Source of the DNA: an uncultured Alphaproteobacteria bacterium
Lineage (GTDB): Bacteria > Pseudomonadota > Alphaproteobacteria > Rhizobiales > Beijerinckiaceae
Assembly (NCBI GenBank): GCA_963709185.1
Contig: CAVPVQ010000029.1
Span: 1,122-65,121, forward strand
Direction: 5' to 3'
DNA length: 64,000 bases
Shown: positions 26,801 through 33,364 of the stretch, piece by piece
Position numbering within the stretch: position 1 is the stretch's first letter
Layout: every line of letters begins with the position of its first letter
The notes under the pieces: generated by a model
What the model saw: only the letters and a program-made list of their open reading frames with translations
Told to the model about the DNA's origin: nothing
Databases searched by the model: none
Program-made: the position numbers and the translations under genes

Positions 26801-27580
26801 ATCTTCAGGAACGACATCAGGCCGCTGGAGCGCCCGCCGCCCGACAGCTTCTCGTTCTCGCCGCGCAAGGCCGAGAAATTGGAGCCGGTGCCCGATCCGT
26901 ATTTGAACAGCCGCGCCTCGCGCACCCACAGGTCCATGATGCCGCCGTCGTTGACGAGGTCGTCGGCGACCGACTGGATGAAGCAGGCGTGCGGCTGCGG
27001 ATGCTCGTAGGCCGTCCGCGATTTGGTCAGCTTGCCGGTCTCGAAGTCGACGTAATAATGGCCCTGGCTGGGCCCATCGACGCCATAGGCCCAGTGCAGG
27101 CCGGTGTTGAACCATTGCGGCGAATTGGGCGCGGCCATCTGCCGCGCCAGCATGAAGCGCATTTCGTCGAAGAACGCGCGCGCGTCTTCCTCGCGCGCTG
27201 AAATATCCGCCCTTCCAGCCCCAATAGGTCCAGGCCCCGGCGAGCCGGTCGAACACCTGCCTGGCTGATGTCTCCGGGCCGGCGCGTTCGGCCTTGGGCA
27301 GCGATTCGAGCGCCGCCTCGTCGGGAACCGAGCGCCACAGGAACGACGGCACGGCGTTCTCCTCGACGCGCTTCAGGCGCGCCGGGATTCCCGCCTTGCG
27401 GAAATATTTCTGGGCGAGCACGTCGGCCGCCACCTGGCTCCAGCCGGCGGGAACCTCGATATTGTCGAGCGCGAACACCACCGAGCCGTCGGGATTGCGG
27501 ATCTCGCTCTTCGTCGTATGAAATTCGATCAAGGCGTAAGGGGAAACGTCAGCCTTGGTGTATCGCCGCTCGATCCGCAT
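23840..27580 (-). CDS. nrdJ: Adenosylcobalamin-dependent class II ribonucleotide reductase; two 1-nt frameshifts (about 27195 and 25838)
   Basis: MRIERRYT start; [54 protein letters not shown]-terminal [13 protein letters not shown]. The three reading frames join into one canonical protein. Confidence 0.93.
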
Positions 27581-27819
27581 TTTCTCGTTCCCATTTTGGC
27601 GGACGCACGTCCGCTCCGACCGCGACGCGGCCCCCCGGTTTTGAATCGTCCACTGTCTGAAACGCCCAAGCCGTTGAAGGCGTTGGAGACCTGACGCGCG
27701 GCTCTCCGCCAACCCCCGCGGATCGCCCCGCAACCACCAGACACCACAGCCCGCCAGCGCCAGGAACACTACGCTTTTATGACGAAAACGTCAACAGTTT
27801 GTGCCAAACATTCCGGCGG

Positions 27820-27835
27820 ACACAACATATTGTGG
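27820..27835. promoter_or_regulatory. NrdR box ACACAACATATTGTGG
   Basis: Near-palindrome matching the acaCwAyATrTwGtg consensus, about 240 nt upstream of nrdJ. Confidence 0.75.
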
Positions 27836-28065
27836 ATCAAAAATGTATAACGTTAGGTAAACGGCCGGACCTCTTGACAGCATCGACCGAGTCGGGCGGC
27901 CGACGCAAGACACAATTTCGCCGCCATCGCGCCGCCGGTTGTTTGCCGCGCCGCACGGCCCATTGCGCGCTGGACAGGCCTCACGCGCCTCGTCATAGTC
28001 CGCCGCGAAAACGCGGAGTCGATCCGCCCCGTTCGCCTCCCCCGCGACCGGTCCGGAGTCAACGT

Positions 28066-28476
28066 ATGAAACTCTTTCTGTTGCGGTTCTTCACGTGGTG
28101 GAACGGCGCGACGCTCAACACGCTGTTCTACACAAGCCGGCGCGGCGAACTCGTCGGCCATGACGAATTCGGCAACCAATATTACCAGACGCGCGGCGCC
28201 GCGATCGATCCGGCCCTCGGATTCGTGCGGCGCTGGGTGATCTACAACGGCGTGGCGGAAGCCTCGATGACGCCGCCGGGCTGGAACGGCTGGCTGCATC
28301 ACACCGTCGACACGCCGCCGACCAAAGAGGATTATCGCCCCCGCGAATGGGAGCGCCCGCACGTCGGCAACCTCACCGGCACCCCCTTCGCCTACCGCCC
28401 CGCCGGCTCGACGATGAGCTCCGGCCGCCGCCAGCCGGCCGAGGGCGATTATGAGGCGTGGTCGCCGGAGGGCTGA
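28066..28476 (+). CDS. NADH:ubiquinone oxidoreductase NDUFA12 (17.2 kDa) family protein
   Basis: FTWWNG..G.DEFGNQYY..RRWVIYNG.AEAS..PPGWNGWLH..W.P; GGAG RBS. Confidence 0.9.
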   Translation: MKLFLLRFFTWWNGATLNTLFYTSRRGELVGHDEFGNQYYQTRGAAIDPALGFVRRWVIYNGVAEASMTPPGWNGWLHHTVDTPPTKEDYRPREWERPHVGNLTGTPFAYRPAGSTMSSGRRQPAEGDYEAWSPEG

Positions 28477-28584
28477 GGGAGCCGCCGCGCTCGCCGGGCG
28501 GCGCCTTCATTTGGCCCCGCTTTGTCGCAAGACAAGCGCATGTTATGGGCGCGGGGTCTGGTGGCGGCGGGTCCGAATCGAACG

Positions 28585-29253
28585 ATGAACGCGAAAACGC
28601 GCGGCCGCGCCGCTTCAACCGCCCTCGGCGCCCTGCTCGTCGCGGCCCCGTTCGCCGCCGGCCCCGCCTCGGCCGACCGGATCAGCCACCCCACCGCCAT
28701 TTTCGCCGGTCTCGACAAGATCACCGGCCGCATCATCGCGTTCGAAGCGGGGATCGACGAAACGGTGCAATTCGGTTCGCTGCTGGTCACGCCGCGCATC
28801 TGCTACACAAGGCCGCCGACCGAGGCGCCGCGGACCGACGGCTTCGTGGAAGTCGATGAGATCACCGAAAAGAAGACTTACAATCGCATCTTCACCGGCT
28901 GGATGTTCGCCGCCAGCCCCGGCCTGCACGGCGTCGAGCATCCGGTCTACGACATCTGGCTGACCGACTGCAAAGGCGGAACCCAGATCCTGCCCTCGCC
29001 GCCCGAGCAAGTGGAGGCCCCCGACATCGGACCGCCCGACGTCGCCCCGGCGGTCGCGCCGACCGATCCCAAACTCGCAGCCCCGCCCAAGAAGCGCAAA
29101 CCGCCGAAGCCGGCCGAGGCCAGCGCGCCGGGCCCGCTCGACCTCGACGCCGGGCCCTCGGCGGCGACGCCGCCCTCGCAGCGCGGAGGAATCATCCGGC
29201 GGTTCTTCCCGACCGATTCGCCGCCGGTTCCCCCCGGCAACGTCGGCCAATAG
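28585..29253 (+). CDS. DUF2155-domain secreted protein
   Basis: FAGLDKITGRI..FGSL.VTPRICY..IFTGWMFAASPGL..EHPVYDIWLTDC; Pro-rich tail. Confidence 0.9.
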   Translation: MNAKTRGRAASTALGALLVAAPFAAGPASADRISHPTAIFAGLDKITGRIIAFEAGIDETVQFGSLLVTPRICYTRPPTEAPRTDGFVEVDEITEKKTYNRIFTGWMFAASPGLHGVEHPVYDIWLTDCKGGTQILPSPPEQVEAPDIGPPDVAPAVAPTDPKLAAPPKKRKPPKPAEASAPGPLDLDAGPSAATPPSQRGGIIRRFFPTDSPPVPPGNVGQ

Positions 29254-29279
29254 ACGCCGGGCGAACGCCGCACCCCGGC

Positions 29280-30113
29280 CTAACTCTGGCTCTGGCTTTG
29301 GCCCTGCCGGTGGGCGTGGCCGATCCTCAAGGACATGCTGAGCGTTTCGCTGCCGAAGCCGGCCCGCGCTCCGCGAACCGGCGCGGCGCTCTGATAGTCG
29401 AAGCCGACCGCCACACGCACGTAGCGCTCGTCGGCGCAGACGTCGTTGGCCGCGTCGAACGCCACCCAGCCGAGACCGGGCACGTAGGACTCCGCCCAGG
29501 CGTGGCCGGCGTCCGGCGAATCGGCGTCCGGGCGCACGAAATAGCCGCTGACGTAGCGCGCCGGCATCCCCAGCCAGCGCGAGCAGGCGATGAACACATG
29601 CGCGAAATCCCGGCCGACGCCGTTGCGCAGCGCGAAGGCCTCGGCCGCGGTGGTGGTCGCCGGCGTCGGCGCCGGAGCGAAGGTCATCGCCTCATAAATC
29701 GCCGCCATCAACGGATGCAGGCGATCGAGCGCCTCGCGCTTGCCCGTCGTCGCGGCCTCGGCGAATTCGCGCAACGCGCCATTGGCTTCGGCCAGAGGGG
29801 CGGCGCGCAGGTAGATCTCCGGCGGCAGCGGCTCGATCGAACCGCGCACCACGCCGACCGAGTCGAAGGTCTCGACCTCCCCCTCGGCGGTGACCCCGAT
29901 GCGCTCCAGCGGGCCGGGATGGGAAAACGAATGGACGATGTTGCCGAGCGAATCCTCGCTCTGGCGCAACGCGCAGTCGATGTCGGTGGCGATCCGCCAC
30001 CGCGACACATATTGCGCCTCGAAGCTGCGCGGGGTGAGGCGCAGGACCTGGATGATCGAACGCGCGGCCGGCGCATAGGCGTAGGAGGCTTGTTGCGAAA
30101 TCCTGATCCGCAT
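29280..30113 (-). CDS. Transglutaminase-like protein (N-terminal beta domain plus core); catalytic Cys position reads Gly
   Basis: LRLTPR, GNIVH, ARYVSGY, HAWAE, GWVAFD, YVRVAVGFDY; GVGRDFAH in place of GVCQDFAH. Confidence 0.88.
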   Translation of the reverse strand: MRIRISQQASYAYAPAARSIIQVLRLTPRSFEAQYVSRWRIATDIDCALRQSEDSLGNIVHSFSHPGPLERIGVTAEGEVETFDSVGVVRGSIEPLPPEIYLRAAPLAEANGALREFAEAATTGKREALDRLHPLMAAIYEAMTFAPAPTPATTTAAEAFALRNGVGRDFAHVFIACSRWLGMPARYVSGYFVRPDADSPDAGHAWAESYVPGLGWVAFDAANDVCADERYVRVAVGFDYQSAAPVRGARAGFGSETLSMSLRIGHAHRQGQSQSQS

Positions 30114-30209
30114 CGCGCGCACTCAGCTTTGTTCAGGTCGAACCACAAGGCATTGATTTATATGGATTTCGCGTCGGGCGGGAGGCCCGGCGCGCCGCGG
30201 CCCGCCAAG

Positions 30210-31169
30210 TCAGGTGAACAGGTATTGCTCCGAGATGGTCGCCGCAAGCCGGGCGTTGTCGTCCAGAAAGGCGGTGATGAATTCATGCAGGCCGCTCTGG
30301 AAGATTTCCGACATCGTCGCCCGCTCGAGACGCGACATCATCGCGCGCGCCTGGCGCTGCGAGGCGCCGCTGCGGCCGTCGTCGCGGGCCAGCAAGTCCA
30401 GCGCCCGGTCGATGCTTTCGTAGCATGAGATCAGCGAGCGCGGCATCGCCGACTTGAGGATCAGCAGGTCGGCGATCAGCCACGGCTTGACCCGGTCGCG
30501 ATACACCCAGTGATACGAGGTGGTCGCCGACACCGCGCGCAGGATCGCCACCCATTGAAAATAGTCCAGCGAGCCGCCGACCTCTTCGTCGGACGGCAGC
30601 AGCAGGTGATATTTCACGTCGAGCAGACGCGCCGTGTTGTCGGCGCGCTCGACGAAAATCCCGAGGCGGTTGAACCAGTAGGCGTCGTTGCGCAGCATGG
30701 TGCGGTAGCAGGCGCCGTCGAAATCGAGCGAGGCCTTCTTCACATAGTCGAGGAAGCGGACCAGCGACTCCCGATCGAAATCCTTGGCCCCGCGGCGGCG
30801 CGATTCGAAGCGCTTGAGTTCGAGCCACGCGTCGTTGATCGCGGTCCAGGTTTCCGCGGTCAGGGCGGTGCGCACCGCCCGCCCGGTGGCGCGGGCGTTC
30901 TCCAGGCAATTGCAGATCGAGGACGGGTTCGAGCGGTCGAAGGTGAGGAATTCGACGGCGCCGGGCTCGTCGAGCGCCTCGTGGCTTTCGAGAAAGGCGT
31001 CGAGGGCGCCGACCGACGACAGCGCGCCCTCCCATTCGGCGGTGTCCTCGGGGCCTGATTTCGGCAGGATTTCAAGGCGCAAGGTGGCTTCGATGGTGCG
31101 CGCCGTGAAGTCGGCCCGCTCCATCGAGCGGGCCAGCCAGAACAGATTGTCGGCGGTGCGCGCCAGCAT
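30210..31169 (-). CDS. Alpha-E domain protein (DUF403)
   Basis: MLARTADNLFWLARSMERA..ENARATGR..GIFVERADNTARLLDVKY. Confidence 0.92.
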   Translation of the reverse strand: MLARTADNLFWLARSMERADFTARTIEATLRLEILPKSGPEDTAEWEGALSSVGALDAFLESHEALDEPGAVEFLTFDRSNPSSICNCLENARATGRAVRTALTAETWTAINDAWLELKRFESRRRGAKDFDRESLVRFLDYVKKASLDFDGACYRTMLRNDAYWFNRLGIFVERADNTARLLDVKYHLLLPSDEEVGGSLDYFQWVAILRAVSATTSYHWVYRDRVKPWLIADLLILKSAMPRSLISCYESIDRALDLLARDDGRSGASQRQARAMMSRLERATMSEIFQSGLHEFITAFLDDNARLAATISEQYLFT

Positions 31170-31172
31170 GAT

Positions 31173-32621
31173 TCAGCCGCCTCCGCCGCTTGCCGGTTCG
31201 TCGTCGACGACCCAGGTGTCCTTGGTGCCGCCGCCCTGGCTGGAATTGACCACCAGCGACCCTTCGGTCAGCGCCACGCGGGTCAGGCCGCCCGGCACGA
31301 TCTTGACGCCGTTGGCGCCCGACAGCGCGAAGGGCCGCAGATCGACGTGGCGCGGCGAAACGCCGCTGTCGAACGAAGCGGGGCAGGTCGACAGCGCCAG
31401 CGTCGGCTGGGCGATGAAATTGGCCGGATCGGCCTTCAGCTTGGCGGCGAAAATTTCGCGTTGCGCGGCGCTGGCGTGCGGGCCGACCAGCATGCCGTAG
31501 CCGCCGGAGCCGTTGACCTCCTTGACCACCAGCGCGTCCAGGTTGTCGAGCACATGCGAGAGCGCCGCCGGTTCGCGGCAACGGAAGGTCGGCACATTCG
31601 CCAGCAGCGGCTCCTCGTCGAGATAAAACCGTATGATCTCCGGCACATAGCTATAGAGCGCCTTGTCGTCGGCGACGCCGGTGCCCACTGCATTGGCGAT
31701 AGTCACATTGCCTGCCAAATAGGCGCCGGTGAGACCGGGCACGCCCAGCACCGACGCCGGATTGAACACCAGCGGATCGAGAAAGTCGTCGTCGACGCGC
31801 CGGTAGATGACATCGACCCGCTGCGGACCCCGGGTCGTGCGCATGTAGACGACTTCTTCGGAGACGAACAGGTCGCGTCCCTCGACCAGTTCGACGCCGA
31901 GCTTGTCGGCGAGGAAGGAATGTTCGTAATAGGCGGAATTGAACGGCCCCGGCGTCAGGAGCACGATGACCGCCTCCTCGTAGCCGACGCGCGGCGCCAC
32001 CGAGCGCAGGCAGGACAGCAGCGCGTCGGGATAGTTGTCGACCGGCGCGACGCGGTGCTTGGCGAACAGGTCCGGCATTAACCGCATCGTCACTTCGCGA
32101 TTTTCCAGCATGTAGGACACGCCGGAGGGCGTTCGGGCGTTGTCTTCAAGCACGTAGAATTCGTCGCCGTCGACCCGCACGATGTCGATGCCGGCGATAT
32201 GCACCCAGATGTCGTGGGGCGCCCGTCGGCCGATCATTTCAGGCCGGTAGTAGGGGTTGCGCAAAATGAGTTCGGGAGGAATCAGGCCCTCTTTGAGGAT
32301 CGCGCGGGGACCGTAGACGTCGCGCAGGAACAGATTGAGCGCGTTGACGCGCTGGGTGATGCCCGCCTCCAGGCGCGTCCACTCGGCCCGCGAGATCAGG
32401 CGCGGAATGATGTCGAACGGGATGAGCCGCTCGGCCGCGTCCTTGTCGCCATAGACGCCGAAGGTGATGCCGATGCGGCGAAACATATATTCGGCCTGCG
32501 CCCGACGCGCCGCCAGCACGTCGGCCGGCGTCTCCTCCAGCCACCGCTCGATGCGGCGATAGAGCGGGCGCACCGCGTCCTTTTCGAGGCCCATTTCGTC
32601 GAAGAATCGCGGCGCCGGCAT
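31173..32621 (-). CDS. Circularly permuted type 2 ATP-grasp protein (DUF404/DUF407)
   Basis: GITFGVY, GIDIVR, VLEDNARTPSGVSY, IYRRVDDDFLDP, RHVDLRPF, VVNSSQGGGTKDTWV. Confidence 0.92.
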   Translation of the reverse strand: MPAPRFFDEMGLEKDAVRPLYRRIERWLEETPADVLAARRAQAEYMFRRIGITFGVYGDKDAAERLIPFDIIPRLISRAEWTRLEAGITQRVNALNLFLRDVYGPRAILKEGLIPPELILRNPYYRPEMIGRRAPHDIWVHIAGIDIVRVDGDEFYVLEDNARTPSGVSYMLENREVTMRLMPDLFAKHRVAPVDNYPDALLSCLRSVAPRVGYEEAVIVLLTPGPFNSAYYEHSFLADKLGVELVEGRDLFVSEEVVYMRTTRGPQRVDVIYRRVDDDFLDPLVFNPASVLGVPGLTGAYLAGNVTIANAVGTGVADDKALYSYVPEIIRFYLDEEPLLANVPTFRCREPAALSHVLDNLDALVVKEVNGSGGYGMLVGPHASAAQREIFAAKLKADPANFIAQPTLALSTCPASFDSGVSPRHVDLRPFALSGANGVKIVPGGLTRVALTEGSLVVNSSQGGGTKDTWVVDDEPASGGGG

Positions 32622-32708
32622 TGCGTGTTTCCCAAAGGCGGCCAGGGGCCGGTCGCAGACTAGCAAGAGCCATACCGTCGCCGCCGGGGGCGCTTGCCCG
32701 CCCGTCGA

Positions 32709-33364
32709 TCATCGCGCCAAATGGGCCAGCGCCTCCCTGCCGCACATCGGCCTGGCGATCGGCCAGGCGCCGAAATCGGCCTCCACGCTGAGCGCCCGCC
32801 CAAGCATCTGCAGATAGGCGCTCCGACTGACCTCGATGGCCCCGAGGCTCGCCAGATGCGGGGTGACGAACTGGGTGTCGAGCAGGCGGTAGCCGCCCAG
32901 ACGCAGGCGCGCCACCAGATGGGCGAGCGCGACCTTCGAGGCGTCGCGCGCCCGATGGAACATGCTCTCCCCGAAGAAGGCGGCGCCCAGCGACACGCCG
33001 TAGAGACCCCCGCCAGCGCGCCGTCTTCGAAAACCTCGATCGAATGGGCGCGCCCGGCCTCGAACAACTCGCGATAGAGGCGGCGGATTTCCGCGTTGAT
33101 CCAGGTCTTGTCGCGGTTCGCGCAGGCGACGACGACGTCATCGAAGCGTTCGTCGGCGCGGACCTCGAACCGGTCGGCGCGCAGGGTCCTGGCGAGGCTG
33201 CGCGAGATCACCAGGCCGTCGAGCGGAAACACGCCCCGCTCCTTGGGGTCGACCCAGAACAGGGTCGAGGACTCGCAGCTCTCGGCCATCGGAAACAGGC
33301 CGATCGAATAGGCCCGCAGCAGAATGTCGGCGGTGATCTCGAAGGATTCGGCGGGTCGCGACAT
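32709..33364 (-). CDS. aat: Leucyl/phenylalanyl-tRNA--protein transferase; 1-G deletion near 33007-33011
   Basis: [28 protein letters not shown]; after the shift [39 protein letters not shown]. Confidence 0.9.

What the first reader, a model, noticed from the sequence alone, without database searches (positions are those of the whole stretch)
29613..29615. Transglutaminase catalytic Cys replaced by Gly
The DNA reads GGC GTC GGC CGG GAT TTC GCG CAT (GVGRDFAH), whereas the family has GVCQDFAH; His (HAWAE) and Asp (FD) are retained and the ORF is intact, with a Gln/Ser tail (QGQSQSQS). Two adjacent substitutions are unlike the indel errors seen elsewhere. This suggests a pseudo-enzyme acting as a substrate-binding adaptor in a protease-less version of the system.
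Basis: partly seen in the sequence, partly recalled or inferred. Interest (0 to 1): 0.6.

Follow-up and report, generated by a model that had tools for sequence, protein, structure and literature searches.

The report
Catalytically dead transglutaminase-like operon protein
The third gene of a predicted peptide-ligase operon encodes a transglutaminase-like protein that really has lost its catalytic cysteine; the loss is fixed in a clade, recurs many times in this bacterial genus, and the gene is still kept by selection, so it is a natural pseudo-enzyme, not an error or a dying gene.

Summary
Observation confirmed. Codon GGC at 29613-29615 (minus strand) is residue 170 of a 280-aa Bact_transglu_N + Transglut_core protein. 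It aligns with the nucleophile Cys of PDB 3ISR and of all close Cys-bearing orthologues. His207 and Asp223 are kept.

It is not strain-private. Gly is fixed in a clade of about 15 sequence clusters from independent metagenomes and two species-level genomes. Within that clade the gene is under purifying selection (dN/dS 0.12-0.23).

In this Roseiarcus-like genus 27 of 28 sampled species lack the Cys (Ala, Gly, Ser, Val). A subclade has also lost His207. Asp223 and about 50 other positions stay conserved. Constraint is relaxed only around the active site.

The nearest Cys-bearing orthologues (79-81% identical, same flanking genes) have an Anbu protease gene directly downstream. Here Anbu is cleanly deleted. 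Basal Gly-clade members still carry Anbu, so Cys-to-Gly came before the deletion.

Across 147 operons Cys loss is enriched where Anbu is missing. Counter-examples exist in both directions, and independent contrasts are too few for significance.

Best reading: a pseudo-enzyme kept for a non-catalytic role beside the strongly conserved ATP-grasp and Alpha-E proteins. What that role is remains untested.

Side finding: a Gln-rich C-terminal tail is a hallmark of the whole family.

The parts
29613..29615 (-). Gly170 codon (GGC) at the position of the catalytic Cys (TGC in the nearest orthologues)
29610..29612 (-). Arg171 codon (CGG), where Cys-bearing relatives have Gln (CAG). 3ISR also has Arg here, so this change alone is not inactivating.
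29280..30122 (-). Transglutaminase-like pseudo-enzyme gene (Bact_transglu_N + Transglut_core). The probable start is the ATG at 30113.
29502..29504 (-). His207 codon, retained here but replaced by Phe or Tyr in a large part of the genus
29454..29456 (-). Asp223 codon, invariant in all 177 aligned relatives
29283..29306 (-). Gln/Ser-rich C-terminal tail (QGQSQSQS), a family-wide feature
29254..29279 (.). 26-base junction between the TGase stop and the end of the convergent DUF2155 gene. This is the place where orthologous loci carry Anbu (G368, G381), or a GGDEF-EAL gene plus Anbu (G315, P0017).
30210..31169 (-). Alpha-E gene (PF04168), 93-95% identical to G368/G381, dN/dS 0.04-0.06
31173..32666 (-). 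Circularly permuted ATP-grasp gene (PF14403/PF04174), 92% identical to G368/G381, dN/dS 0.04-0.09. The probable start is the ATG at 32621.
28522..29253 (+). DUF2155 gene, convergent. It is the conserved downstream neighbour of the operon in the genus.
32715..33364 (-). aat (Leu/Phe-tRNA protein transferase), the conserved upstream neighbour. Here it is read in two frames (shift near 32996-33008).

Best explanation
The gene encodes a catalytically dead member of the transglutaminase-like (papain-fold) family. This family forms the third gene of the circularly permuted ATP-grasp / Alpha-E / transglutaminase-like (/Anbu) operon.

Shown: the nucleophile Cys is replaced by Gly. The replacement descends from a Cys-bearing, Anbu-linked ancestor and is fixed in a clade. 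The protein stays under purifying selection and keeps the fold, Asp223, the DFAH and WAE motifs, the N-terminal beta-sandwich domain and the Gln-rich tail. Across the genus the Cys was lost repeatedly, and constraint was relaxed only on residues around the active site.

Inferred: whatever thiol-dependent step the ancestral protein did has become dispensable in this genus. The literature predicts that step to be removal of the peptide tag made by the ATP-grasp ligase. The protein is kept for a second, non-catalytic job, most likely binding. The bound partner could be the ATP-grasp/Alpha-E proteins or the ligase's substrate or product, as in other dead transglutaminase-like domains (Rad4/XPC, Cyk3, CC2D2A). 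The Anbu deletion in this genome is a later step of the same simplification, not its cause.
For: Site and fold.

Clade-wide Gly: 19 of 177 aligned rows carry Gly at the site. They include a Gly clade of 15 rows (SH-aLRT 83; core of 13 at 95) drawn from JGI, ENA, Logan and NCBI assemblies.

Ancestry: G368 and G381 have the same aat-grasp-AlphaE-TGase-[Anbu]-DUF2155-NDUFA12 locus. Their grasp is 92% identical, Alpha-E 93-95% and TGase 79-81%, with GVCQDFAH.

Selection: TGase dN/dS is 0.12-0.23 inside the Gly clade and 0.12-0.29 in close pairs of the Ala clades. It is 0.04-0.27 in Cys-bearing pairs. The neighbouring genes give 0.02-0.09.

Repeated loss: 6 changes are forced by supported branches and 9 appear on the best tree between Cys and non-Cys. 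Cys-bearers in the genus keep the outgroup's exact GVCQDFAH flanks and the ancestral Anbu, which argues for retention rather than reversion.

Pattern of constraint: 50 positions are at least 90% conserved in both Cys and non-Cys groups. Positions relaxed only in the non-Cys group cluster at 169, 171, 205-207, 226, 243 and 251.

Precedent: inactive transglutaminase-like domains act as peptide-binding modules (PMC3495828).
Against: No binding partner or activity was tested, and no complex prediction was possible.

dN/dS of the Cys-less forms is somewhat higher than in the nearest Cys pair (0.12-0.23 against 0.10). The TGase is the fastest-evolving gene of the operon.

Three to four species of the genus carry a frameshifted copy, so the protein is dispensable, or works in two pieces, in some lineages.

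His207 and Asp223 are still present here, so a residual, different chemistry cannot be excluded.
Confidence: 0.6

Rival explanations
1. Slow decay. After the system lost its protease arm the transglutaminase-like gene became useless and is drifting towards a pseudogene. The apparent purifying selection is a lag, or reflects selection against misfolded products.
For: The TGase evolves 2-5 times faster in dN/dS than ATP-grasp and Alpha-E. A second catalytic residue (His207 to Phe/Tyr) is lost in a large subclade. Frameshifted copies occur in G303, G311, G322 and G306. Anbu is missing from 96 of 101 genomes of the genus.
Against: The ORF is intact in about 30 of 35 species, although divergence runs down to 50% identity and synonymous sites are saturated. 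dN/dS is 0.12-0.29, not near 1. Cys-bearing pairs reach similar values (0.04-0.27). Fifty positions, Asp223 included, are as conserved in Cys-less as in Cys-bearing forms. The shared frameshift sits at the domain boundary with an ATG at the junction and no further stops, so even that copy may be expressed as two pieces.
Confidence: 0.22
2. Still an enzyme. Catalysis continues with another nucleophile or mechanism, for example His207/Asp223-activated water, another Cys (Cys180, Cys229), or a nucleophile supplied by a partner protein.
For: His207 and Asp223 are retained in the Gly clade. Cys180 and Cys229 are 93-99% conserved in Cys-less forms. Ser replacements could keep a nucleophile in some lineages.
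Against: Cys180 and Cys229 are also conserved in Cys-bearing forms (66% and 89%), so they are not compensatory gains. The site takes Gly, Ala, Val, Pro and Met in different lineages. The residues that flank the triad lose constraint together with the Cys, and His207 is then lost in many lineages. That is the pattern of an abandoned active site.
Confidence: 0.1
3. The protein is mainly a substrate or carrier rather than an enzyme. Its conserved Gln-rich C-terminal tail is what the operon's ATP-grasp ligase, or the ancestral thiol active site, works on. This would compare with RimK on S6, TTL enzymes on tubulin tails, or Dop/PafA on the C-terminal Gln of Pup. Cys-less forms have lost only the self-processing step.
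For: Gln makes up 29.6% of the last 10 residues against 2.8% of the rest in 246 family members, and 192 of the 246 have at least two Gln there. The tail is present in Cys and non-Cys forms and in the separate Anbu operon of G352, which ends in a run of seven Gln. It is absent from the five other transglutaminase-core paralogues of this genome.
Against: This is purely an analogy. No modification data exist. The tail is predicted with low confidence (pLDDT 63) and could simply be a disordered linker or degradation signal.
Confidence: 0.07
4. Sequencing or assembly error at one base (TGC read as GGC).
For: The assembly has apparent indel problems nearby (the aat gene is read in two frames).
Against: The same GGC codon and the adjacent CGG or CGA occur in independent assemblies from other samples (L085, L086, L088). 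About 15 distinct protein clusters share the Gly.
Confidence: 0.01

Closest known systems
Transglutaminase-like third gene of the Anbu operon (COG2308 ATP-grasp, COG2307 Alpha-E, COG1305 transglutaminase-like, Anbu), described by Valas & Bourne 2008 (PMC3235984) and Iyer et al. 2009. The structural representative is PDB 3ISR from Cytophaga hutchinsonii.
   Same: Same gene order and the same Pfam domains in all three genes. Same two-domain architecture (Bact_transglu_N + Transglut_core). Whole-length structural match to 3ISR (TM 0.77). His and Asp of the triad and the Gln-rich tail are kept. The orthologous locus in G368 and G381 has Anbu.
   Different: The nucleophile Cys is Gly. Anbu is deleted from the locus and not found in the genome. 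The genus as a whole has mostly lost both.
Catalytically inactive transglutaminase-like domains: Rad4/XPC, Cyk3, CC2D2A/MKS6, CEP76 (PMC3495828) and erythrocyte band 4.2 (Cys to Ala; own knowledge)
   Same: A papain/transglutaminase fold with the catalytic Cys replaced, kept by selection. In the studied cases it is used for binding instead of catalysis. XPC chains appear among the fold matches.
   Different: Those are eukaryotic, ancient and embedded in multidomain proteins. This one is a stand-alone bacterial operon protein. Its inactivation is recent enough that active orthologues with 80% identity exist in the same genus, and it has happened many times in parallel.
Anbu-less three-gene ATP-grasp / Alpha-E / transglutaminase-like operons with an intact Cys (for example the g28 group L012-L019, P0079, P0105)
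   Same: Same three genes, with no protease gene adjacent.
   Different: They keep GVCQDFAH. Lack of Anbu therefore does not by itself make the Cys dispensable.

Membership tests
Transglutaminase-like superfamily (Pfam PF01841 Transglut_core, papain-like fold) | Sequence and fold match to the core domain | tested here: met
   PF01841 scores 71.2 bits (cut-off 23). 3ISR matches with E 8e-12 by sequence and TM 0.77 by structure.
Transglutaminase-like superfamily (Pfam PF01841 Transglut_core, papain-like fold) | Catalytic Cys at the N-terminus of the core helix | tested here: not met
   Gly170 aligns with the Cys of 3ISR and of orthologues. The model's helix starts at residue 170.
Transglutaminase-like superfamily (Pfam PF01841 Transglut_core, papain-like fold) | Catalytic His and Asp on successive strands | tested here: met
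   His207 opens strand 207-214 and Asp223 closes strand 218-223. Asp is invariant in 177 relatives.
ATP-grasp / Alpha-E / transglutaminase-like / Anbu operon | Circularly permuted ATP-grasp and Alpha-E genes directly upstream on the same strand | tested here: met
   PF14403 at 550 bits and PF04168 at 295 bits, with genes 3-90 bases apart.
ATP-grasp / Alpha-E / transglutaminase-like / Anbu operon | Transglutaminase-like protein with the Bact_transglu_N domain as third gene | tested here: met
   PF08379 at 58.5 bits over residues 7-84.
ATP-grasp / Alpha-E / transglutaminase-like / Anbu operon | Anbu (proteasome-beta-like) gene downstream or elsewhere in the genome | tested here: not met
   tblastn with the Anbu proteins of G315 and G352 gives no hit in G000 (91.85% complete). 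PF00227 finds only HslV next to HslU, plus a 65-aa chance fragment. Orthologous loci have Anbu between the TGase and DUF2155.
Pseudo-enzyme (dead member of an enzyme family kept by selection) | Loss of an essential catalytic residue, fixed in a clade | tested here: met
   The Gly clade has 15 rows. 27 of 28 species of the genus lack Cys.
Pseudo-enzyme (dead member of an enzyme family kept by selection) | Purifying selection after the loss | tested here: met
   Pairwise NG86 dN/dS is 0.12-0.23 (Gly clade) and 0.12-0.29 (Ala clades). Only pairwise estimates were made, with no branch model.
Pseudo-enzyme (dead member of an enzyme family kept by selection) | Demonstrated absence of catalysis and a demonstrated non-catalytic function | not testable with these tools
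   Needs enzyme assays and interaction or genetic data.

The most novel reading that the evidence does not exclude
The transglutaminase-like protein of these operons is primarily the substrate or carrier of the system. On this reading its family-wide Gln-rich C-terminal tail is deamidated or trimmed by its own thiol site and/or extended by the ATP-grasp ligase, in the manner of Pup (Dop/PafA) or RimK. The many natural Cys-less lineages would then be variants that skip the self-processing step. That would give the long-uncharacterised Anbu operon a concrete, testable substrate.
Probability: 0.08. Interest if true: 0.8.

Novelty: new variant of a known kind. Interest (0 to 1): 0.45.

Why it matters
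The function of the ATP-grasp / Alpha-E / transglutaminase-like / Anbu operon is still unknown after more than 15 years. The published model treats the transglutaminase-like protein as a thiol peptidase that reverses a peptide tag.

Natural lineages have thrown away the nucleophile, and often the His and the Anbu protease as well. They nevertheless keep the protein and keep the ligase pair under strong constraint. So the conserved core of the system does not need that chemistry, and the protein has a second role.

The genus offers matched pairs for experiments. Orthologous operons about 80% identical exist with Cys plus Anbu, with Gly plus a displaced Anbu, and with Gly and no Anbu. The Gln-rich tail gives a candidate site of modification.

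The general phenomenon, a dead enzyme kept as a binder, is well known. This is therefore an informative variant rather than a new principle.

Tried and rejected
1. Sequencing error. Rejected because the Gly codon recurs in independent assemblies.

2. A weak PF00227 hit in G000 contig C21 as a relic of Anbu. Rejected: it is a 65-aa frame, and tblastn with real Anbu proteins finds nothing.

3. A compensating new Cys. The conserved Cys180 and Cys229 are also conserved in Cys-bearing forms.

4. A strict Cys-loss/Anbu-loss rule. Rejected by L101 (Gly with adjacent Anbu), L115 (Pro with Anbu), the Ser forms with Anbu, and 24 Cys-bearing operons without Anbu. independent_pairs gave 8 pairs: about 2.8 as predicted, 0.4 against, 4.8 uninformative, median p 0.5.

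5. The 41% Cys-less share among 50%-identity cluster representatives (33 of 80) as an estimate of prevalence. Rejected as biased, because fast-evolving Cys-less lineages make more clusters. In one-genome-per-species samples outside the genus it is 9 of 108.

6. YN00 dN/dS failed (math error) for most distant pairs, so NG86 values were used. Pairs with dS above about 0.8 are saturated and were not interpreted.

8. Iyer et al. 2009 (PMC3268129) is not held. I could not check whether Cys-less forms are mentioned there. Literature searches for pseudo-enzyme or Gln-rich-tail descriptions of this family found nothing.

9. NCBIfam has no model for any of the three proteins.

Full report
**The site**

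The finding lies in a minus-strand ORF, window 29280..30122 (280 aa from a GTG; the public protein clusters start at the ATG three codons later). Residues 168-175 read GVGRDFAH, and the Gly170 codon GGC occupies exactly 29613-29615.

Pfam finds Bact_transglu_N (7-84) and Transglut_core (119-224; 71 bits against a cut-off of 23). The only solved relative by sequence is 3ISR, a putative cysteine protease from Cytophaga hutchinsonii. Its GVCRDFAH aligns with GVGRDFAH, its HACFEAY with HAWAESY and its FDA with FDA.

An AlphaFold2 model built on 130 relatives is confident (pLDDT 94.6, pTM 0.92). It begins a helix at residue 170, places His207 at the start and Asp223 at the end of successive strands, and matches 3ISR over the whole length (TM 0.77).

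Against the nearest Cys-bearing orthologues the DNA changes are TGC to GGC and CAG to CGG. 3ISR itself has Arg after the Cys, so the second change is not by itself inactivating.

**The context**

The two genes upstream on the same strand are a circularly permuted ATP-grasp (31173..32666; PF14403, 550 bits) and an Alpha-E protein (30210..31169; PF04168, 295 bits). Upstream of those lies aat, the Leu/Phe-tRNA protein transferase. Downstream, convergent, lie DUF2155 and NDUFA12.

This is the operon in which Anbu usually forms the fourth gene (PMC3235984, PMC5666114, PMC6376114). The genome (5.99 Mb, 33 contigs, 91.85% complete) has no Anbu:
- PF00227 finds HslV beside HslU and a 65-aa chance fragment.
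- tblastn with two real Anbu proteins finds nothing.

Five other transglutaminase-core paralogues in the genome all keep the Cys; four also keep the His and one has Ser there. One of them is the third gene of a second Alpha-E system on contig C25.

**Not strain-private**

Among the 120 best public protein clusters, all hits at 84% identity or more have Gly at the site (GVGRDFAH or GAGRDFAH). Hits at 78-83% mostly have GVCQDFAH. Most hits at 55-68% have Ala or Ser. Several are labelled Roseiarcus sp. by NCBI (taxonomy).

In species-representative genomes of the same genus, 28 loci gave Ala 22, Gly 2, Ser 1, Val 1 and Cys 1. The single Cys form has His207 replaced by Tyr. His207 is Phe or Tyr in seven loci, and Asp223 is always kept.

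In a 177-row alignment Asp223 is invariant. The Cys site reads C 54, A 89, G 19, S 13, P 1, V 1. The His site reads H 119, F 30, Y 19 and others 9.

**Phylogeny**

A FastTree of the 177 rows was built with the trait columns removed. It gives a strongly supported genus-level clade of 145 rows (support 100). In it Cys survives in only 23 rows, 20 of them in the 39-row subclade that holds the query (support 98). Between Cys and non-Cys the best tree needs 9 changes, and 6 are forced by well-supported branches.

An IQ-TREE of 57 rows makes the Gly forms one clade of 15 (SH-aLRT 83; a core of 13 at 95). This clade sits next to the Cys-bearing group.

The Cys-bearers inside the genus carry exactly the outgroup's GVCQDFAH, with codons TGC and CAG. 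As shown below, they also keep the ancestral fourth gene. They therefore retain the ancestral state rather than having reverted. The Cys was lost many times independently.

**The Anbu link**

G368 and G381, of the same genus, hold the orthologous locus. Their ATP-grasp is 92% identical, Alpha-E 93-95% and the transglutaminase-like protein 79-81%, with Cys. It is followed directly by Anbu and then DUF2155 and NDUFA12.

The DNA downstream of Anbu in G315 matches window 29249..27294 at 85%. In G000, therefore, Anbu is missing from the 26 bases between the stop codon and DUF2155.

Within the Gly clade the two arrangements are:
- The early-branching forms (G315 and the contig of P0017) read TGase(Gly), a convergent MHYT-GGDEF-EAL gene, Anbu, DUF2155.
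- The nested 7-row subclade with the query (P0006, P0010, P0011) has no Anbu.

So Cys-to-Gly preceded the Anbu deletion. At most it coincided with the insertion that uncoupled Anbu from the operon.

Other lineages of the genus:
- Ser forms (P0041, P0037) have an adjacent Anbu.
- Deep Ala and Gly lineages (P0047, P0073, P0044) have none.
- A Cys form (P0079) and the Cys-bearing sister group (P0105) have none.
- Only 5 of 101 genomes of the genus have any Anbu.

**Beyond the genus**

I examined 108 operons from one-genome-per-species samples of the order and phylum. All have Alpha-E upstream. Of these, 99 have Cys (78 with an adjacent Anbu, 21 without) and 9 do not:

| Locus | Residue at the Cys site | Adjacent Anbu | Group |
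|---|---|---|---|
| L038 | Ser | yes | genus g20 |
| L101 | Gly | yes | same family as the window |
| L115 | Pro | yes | same family as the window |
| L116 | Ala | no | same family as the window |
| L122 | Ser | no | genus g145 |
| L125 | Pro | no | genus g145 |
| L144 | Met | no | genus g145 |
| L157 | Gly | no | genus g145 |
| L148 | Ser | no | genus g169 |

Pooled with the genus data (147 rows), the counts are:

| State at residue 170 | Without adjacent Anbu | With adjacent Anbu |
|---|---|---|
| Non-Cys | 38 | 5 |
| Cys | 24 | 80 |

Only about 8 phylogenetically independent contrasts exist. On average 2.8 go as predicted, 0.4 go against and 4.8 do not differ (median p 0.5). The association is suggestive, not established, and it is not a rule.

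**Selection**

Pairwise NG86 dN/dS values:

| Comparison | dN/dS |
|---|---|
| TGase, inside the Gly clade (dS 0.2-0.5) | 0.12-0.23 |
| TGase, nearest Cys pair (G368/G381) | 0.096 |
| TGase, close pairs of the Ala clades | 0.12-0.29 |
| TGase, close Cys-bearing pairs elsewhere in the order | 0.04-0.27 |
| Alpha-E and ATP-grasp, same close within-genus pairs (mostly) | 0.02-0.09 |

Cys-less proteins are thus clearly constrained. They are perhaps up to twofold more relaxed than Cys-bearing ones. In all lineages this gene is the fastest-evolving of the operon.

Fifty positions are at least 90% conserved in both the Cys and the non-Cys groups. They include D172, H175, W209, E211, W219, F222, D223, R236, D242 and 23 positions of the N-terminal domain. 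Positions conserved only in the Cys group cluster around the triad: 169, 171, 205-207, 226, 243 and 251. That is the signature of an abandoned active site in a protein that is otherwise maintained.

**Signs of dispensability**

G303, G311 and G322 share one frameshift at about residue 133. It does not lie in a homopolymer. It falls at the boundary between the two halves, has an ATG at the junction, and neither half contains a stop. G306 has another frameshift. G313 is frameshifted in all three genes and is probably a poor assembly.

**Interpretation**

The published model for these operons has the transglutaminase-like protein as a peptidase that reverses a tag made by the ATP-grasp ligase. 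Inactive transglutaminase-like domains elsewhere (Rad4, Cyk3, CC2D2A) are taken to bind peptides (PMC3495828).

The data here fit a pseudo-enzyme that keeps a non-catalytic role beside a strongly conserved ligase pair. I put this at about 0.6. The rivals are slow decay (0.22), residual catalysis by another mechanism (0.10), a mainly substrate or carrier role through the tail (0.07) and error (0.01). Steps shown and steps inferred are separated in the Best explanation section.

**Side observation**

In 246 family members Gln makes up 29.6% of the last ten residues against 2.8% elsewhere. Of these, 192 have at least two Gln there. The separate, complete Anbu operon of G352 has a protein ending in seven Gln. 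The genome's other transglutaminase-core paralogues have no such tail.

**Limits**

No reads, no branch-model test of selection, no complex prediction and no experiment were available. Iyer et al. 2009 could not be read, so I cannot exclude that Cys-less forms were already noted there. The papers I could search do not mention them.

Noticed in passing
window 29283-29306 (-), and family-wide: The Gln-rich C-terminal tail (QxQxQ, QQ, poly-Q) is a hallmark of this operon's transglutaminase-like family. Gln is 29.6% of the last 10 residues against 2.8% elsewhere in 246 proteins. The tail is present with or without the Cys and is absent from the other transglutaminase-core paralogues of the genome.
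   Followed up: partly
window 32715-33364 (-), shift near 32996-33008: The aat gene (Leu/Phe-tRNA protein transferase) directly upstream of the operon is read in two frames here, but is intact in G368 and G381. It is either a real frameshift or an assembly indel.
   Followed up: partly
L092 (G303), L093 (G311), L094 (G322), about 2940 in L094: Three species of the genus share one frameshift in the transglutaminase-like gene at about residue 133. It is not in a homopolymer and has an ATG exactly at the junction, and both halves are open. The gene may be split into an N-domain protein and a core-domain protein.
   Followed up: partly
L085 298-2427 (G315:C501), and the contig of P0017: A 709-aa MHYT-GGDEF-EAL signalling gene is inserted, convergently, between the Gly-bearing transglutaminase-like gene and Anbu in the early-branching members of the Gly clade.
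   Followed up: partly
L122, L125, L144, L157 (genus g145, family f66): A second, unrelated genus has the Cys site as Ser, Pro, Met or Gly in four species, all without an adjacent Anbu. This is a parallel case to the window's genus.
   Followed up: no
L076 2285-6518 (G352:C14): One genome of the genus carries a separate, complete four-gene Anbu operon. Its transglutaminase-like protein is 37% identical to the window's, has the Cys, and ends in a poly-Gln tail. It was probably acquired independently.
   Followed up: partly
G000:C25:73-83 kb (L005, L006, L010): There is a second Alpha-E system in the same genome. It has an 847-aa open frame holding ATP-grasp and Alpha-E homology (apparently fused), a 1130-aa transglutaminase-core protein and a Cys-bearing transglutaminase-like protein (331-aa open frame; 289 aa read to the stop).
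   Followed up: no
L177 1944-2396 (contig of P0047), and the contig of P0010: There are variants of the operon in metagenome relatives. In one, a GFA-domain gene is inserted between ATP-grasp and Alpha-E. In another, the ATP-grasp gene is called as two ORFs (305 + 177 aa).
   Followed up: no
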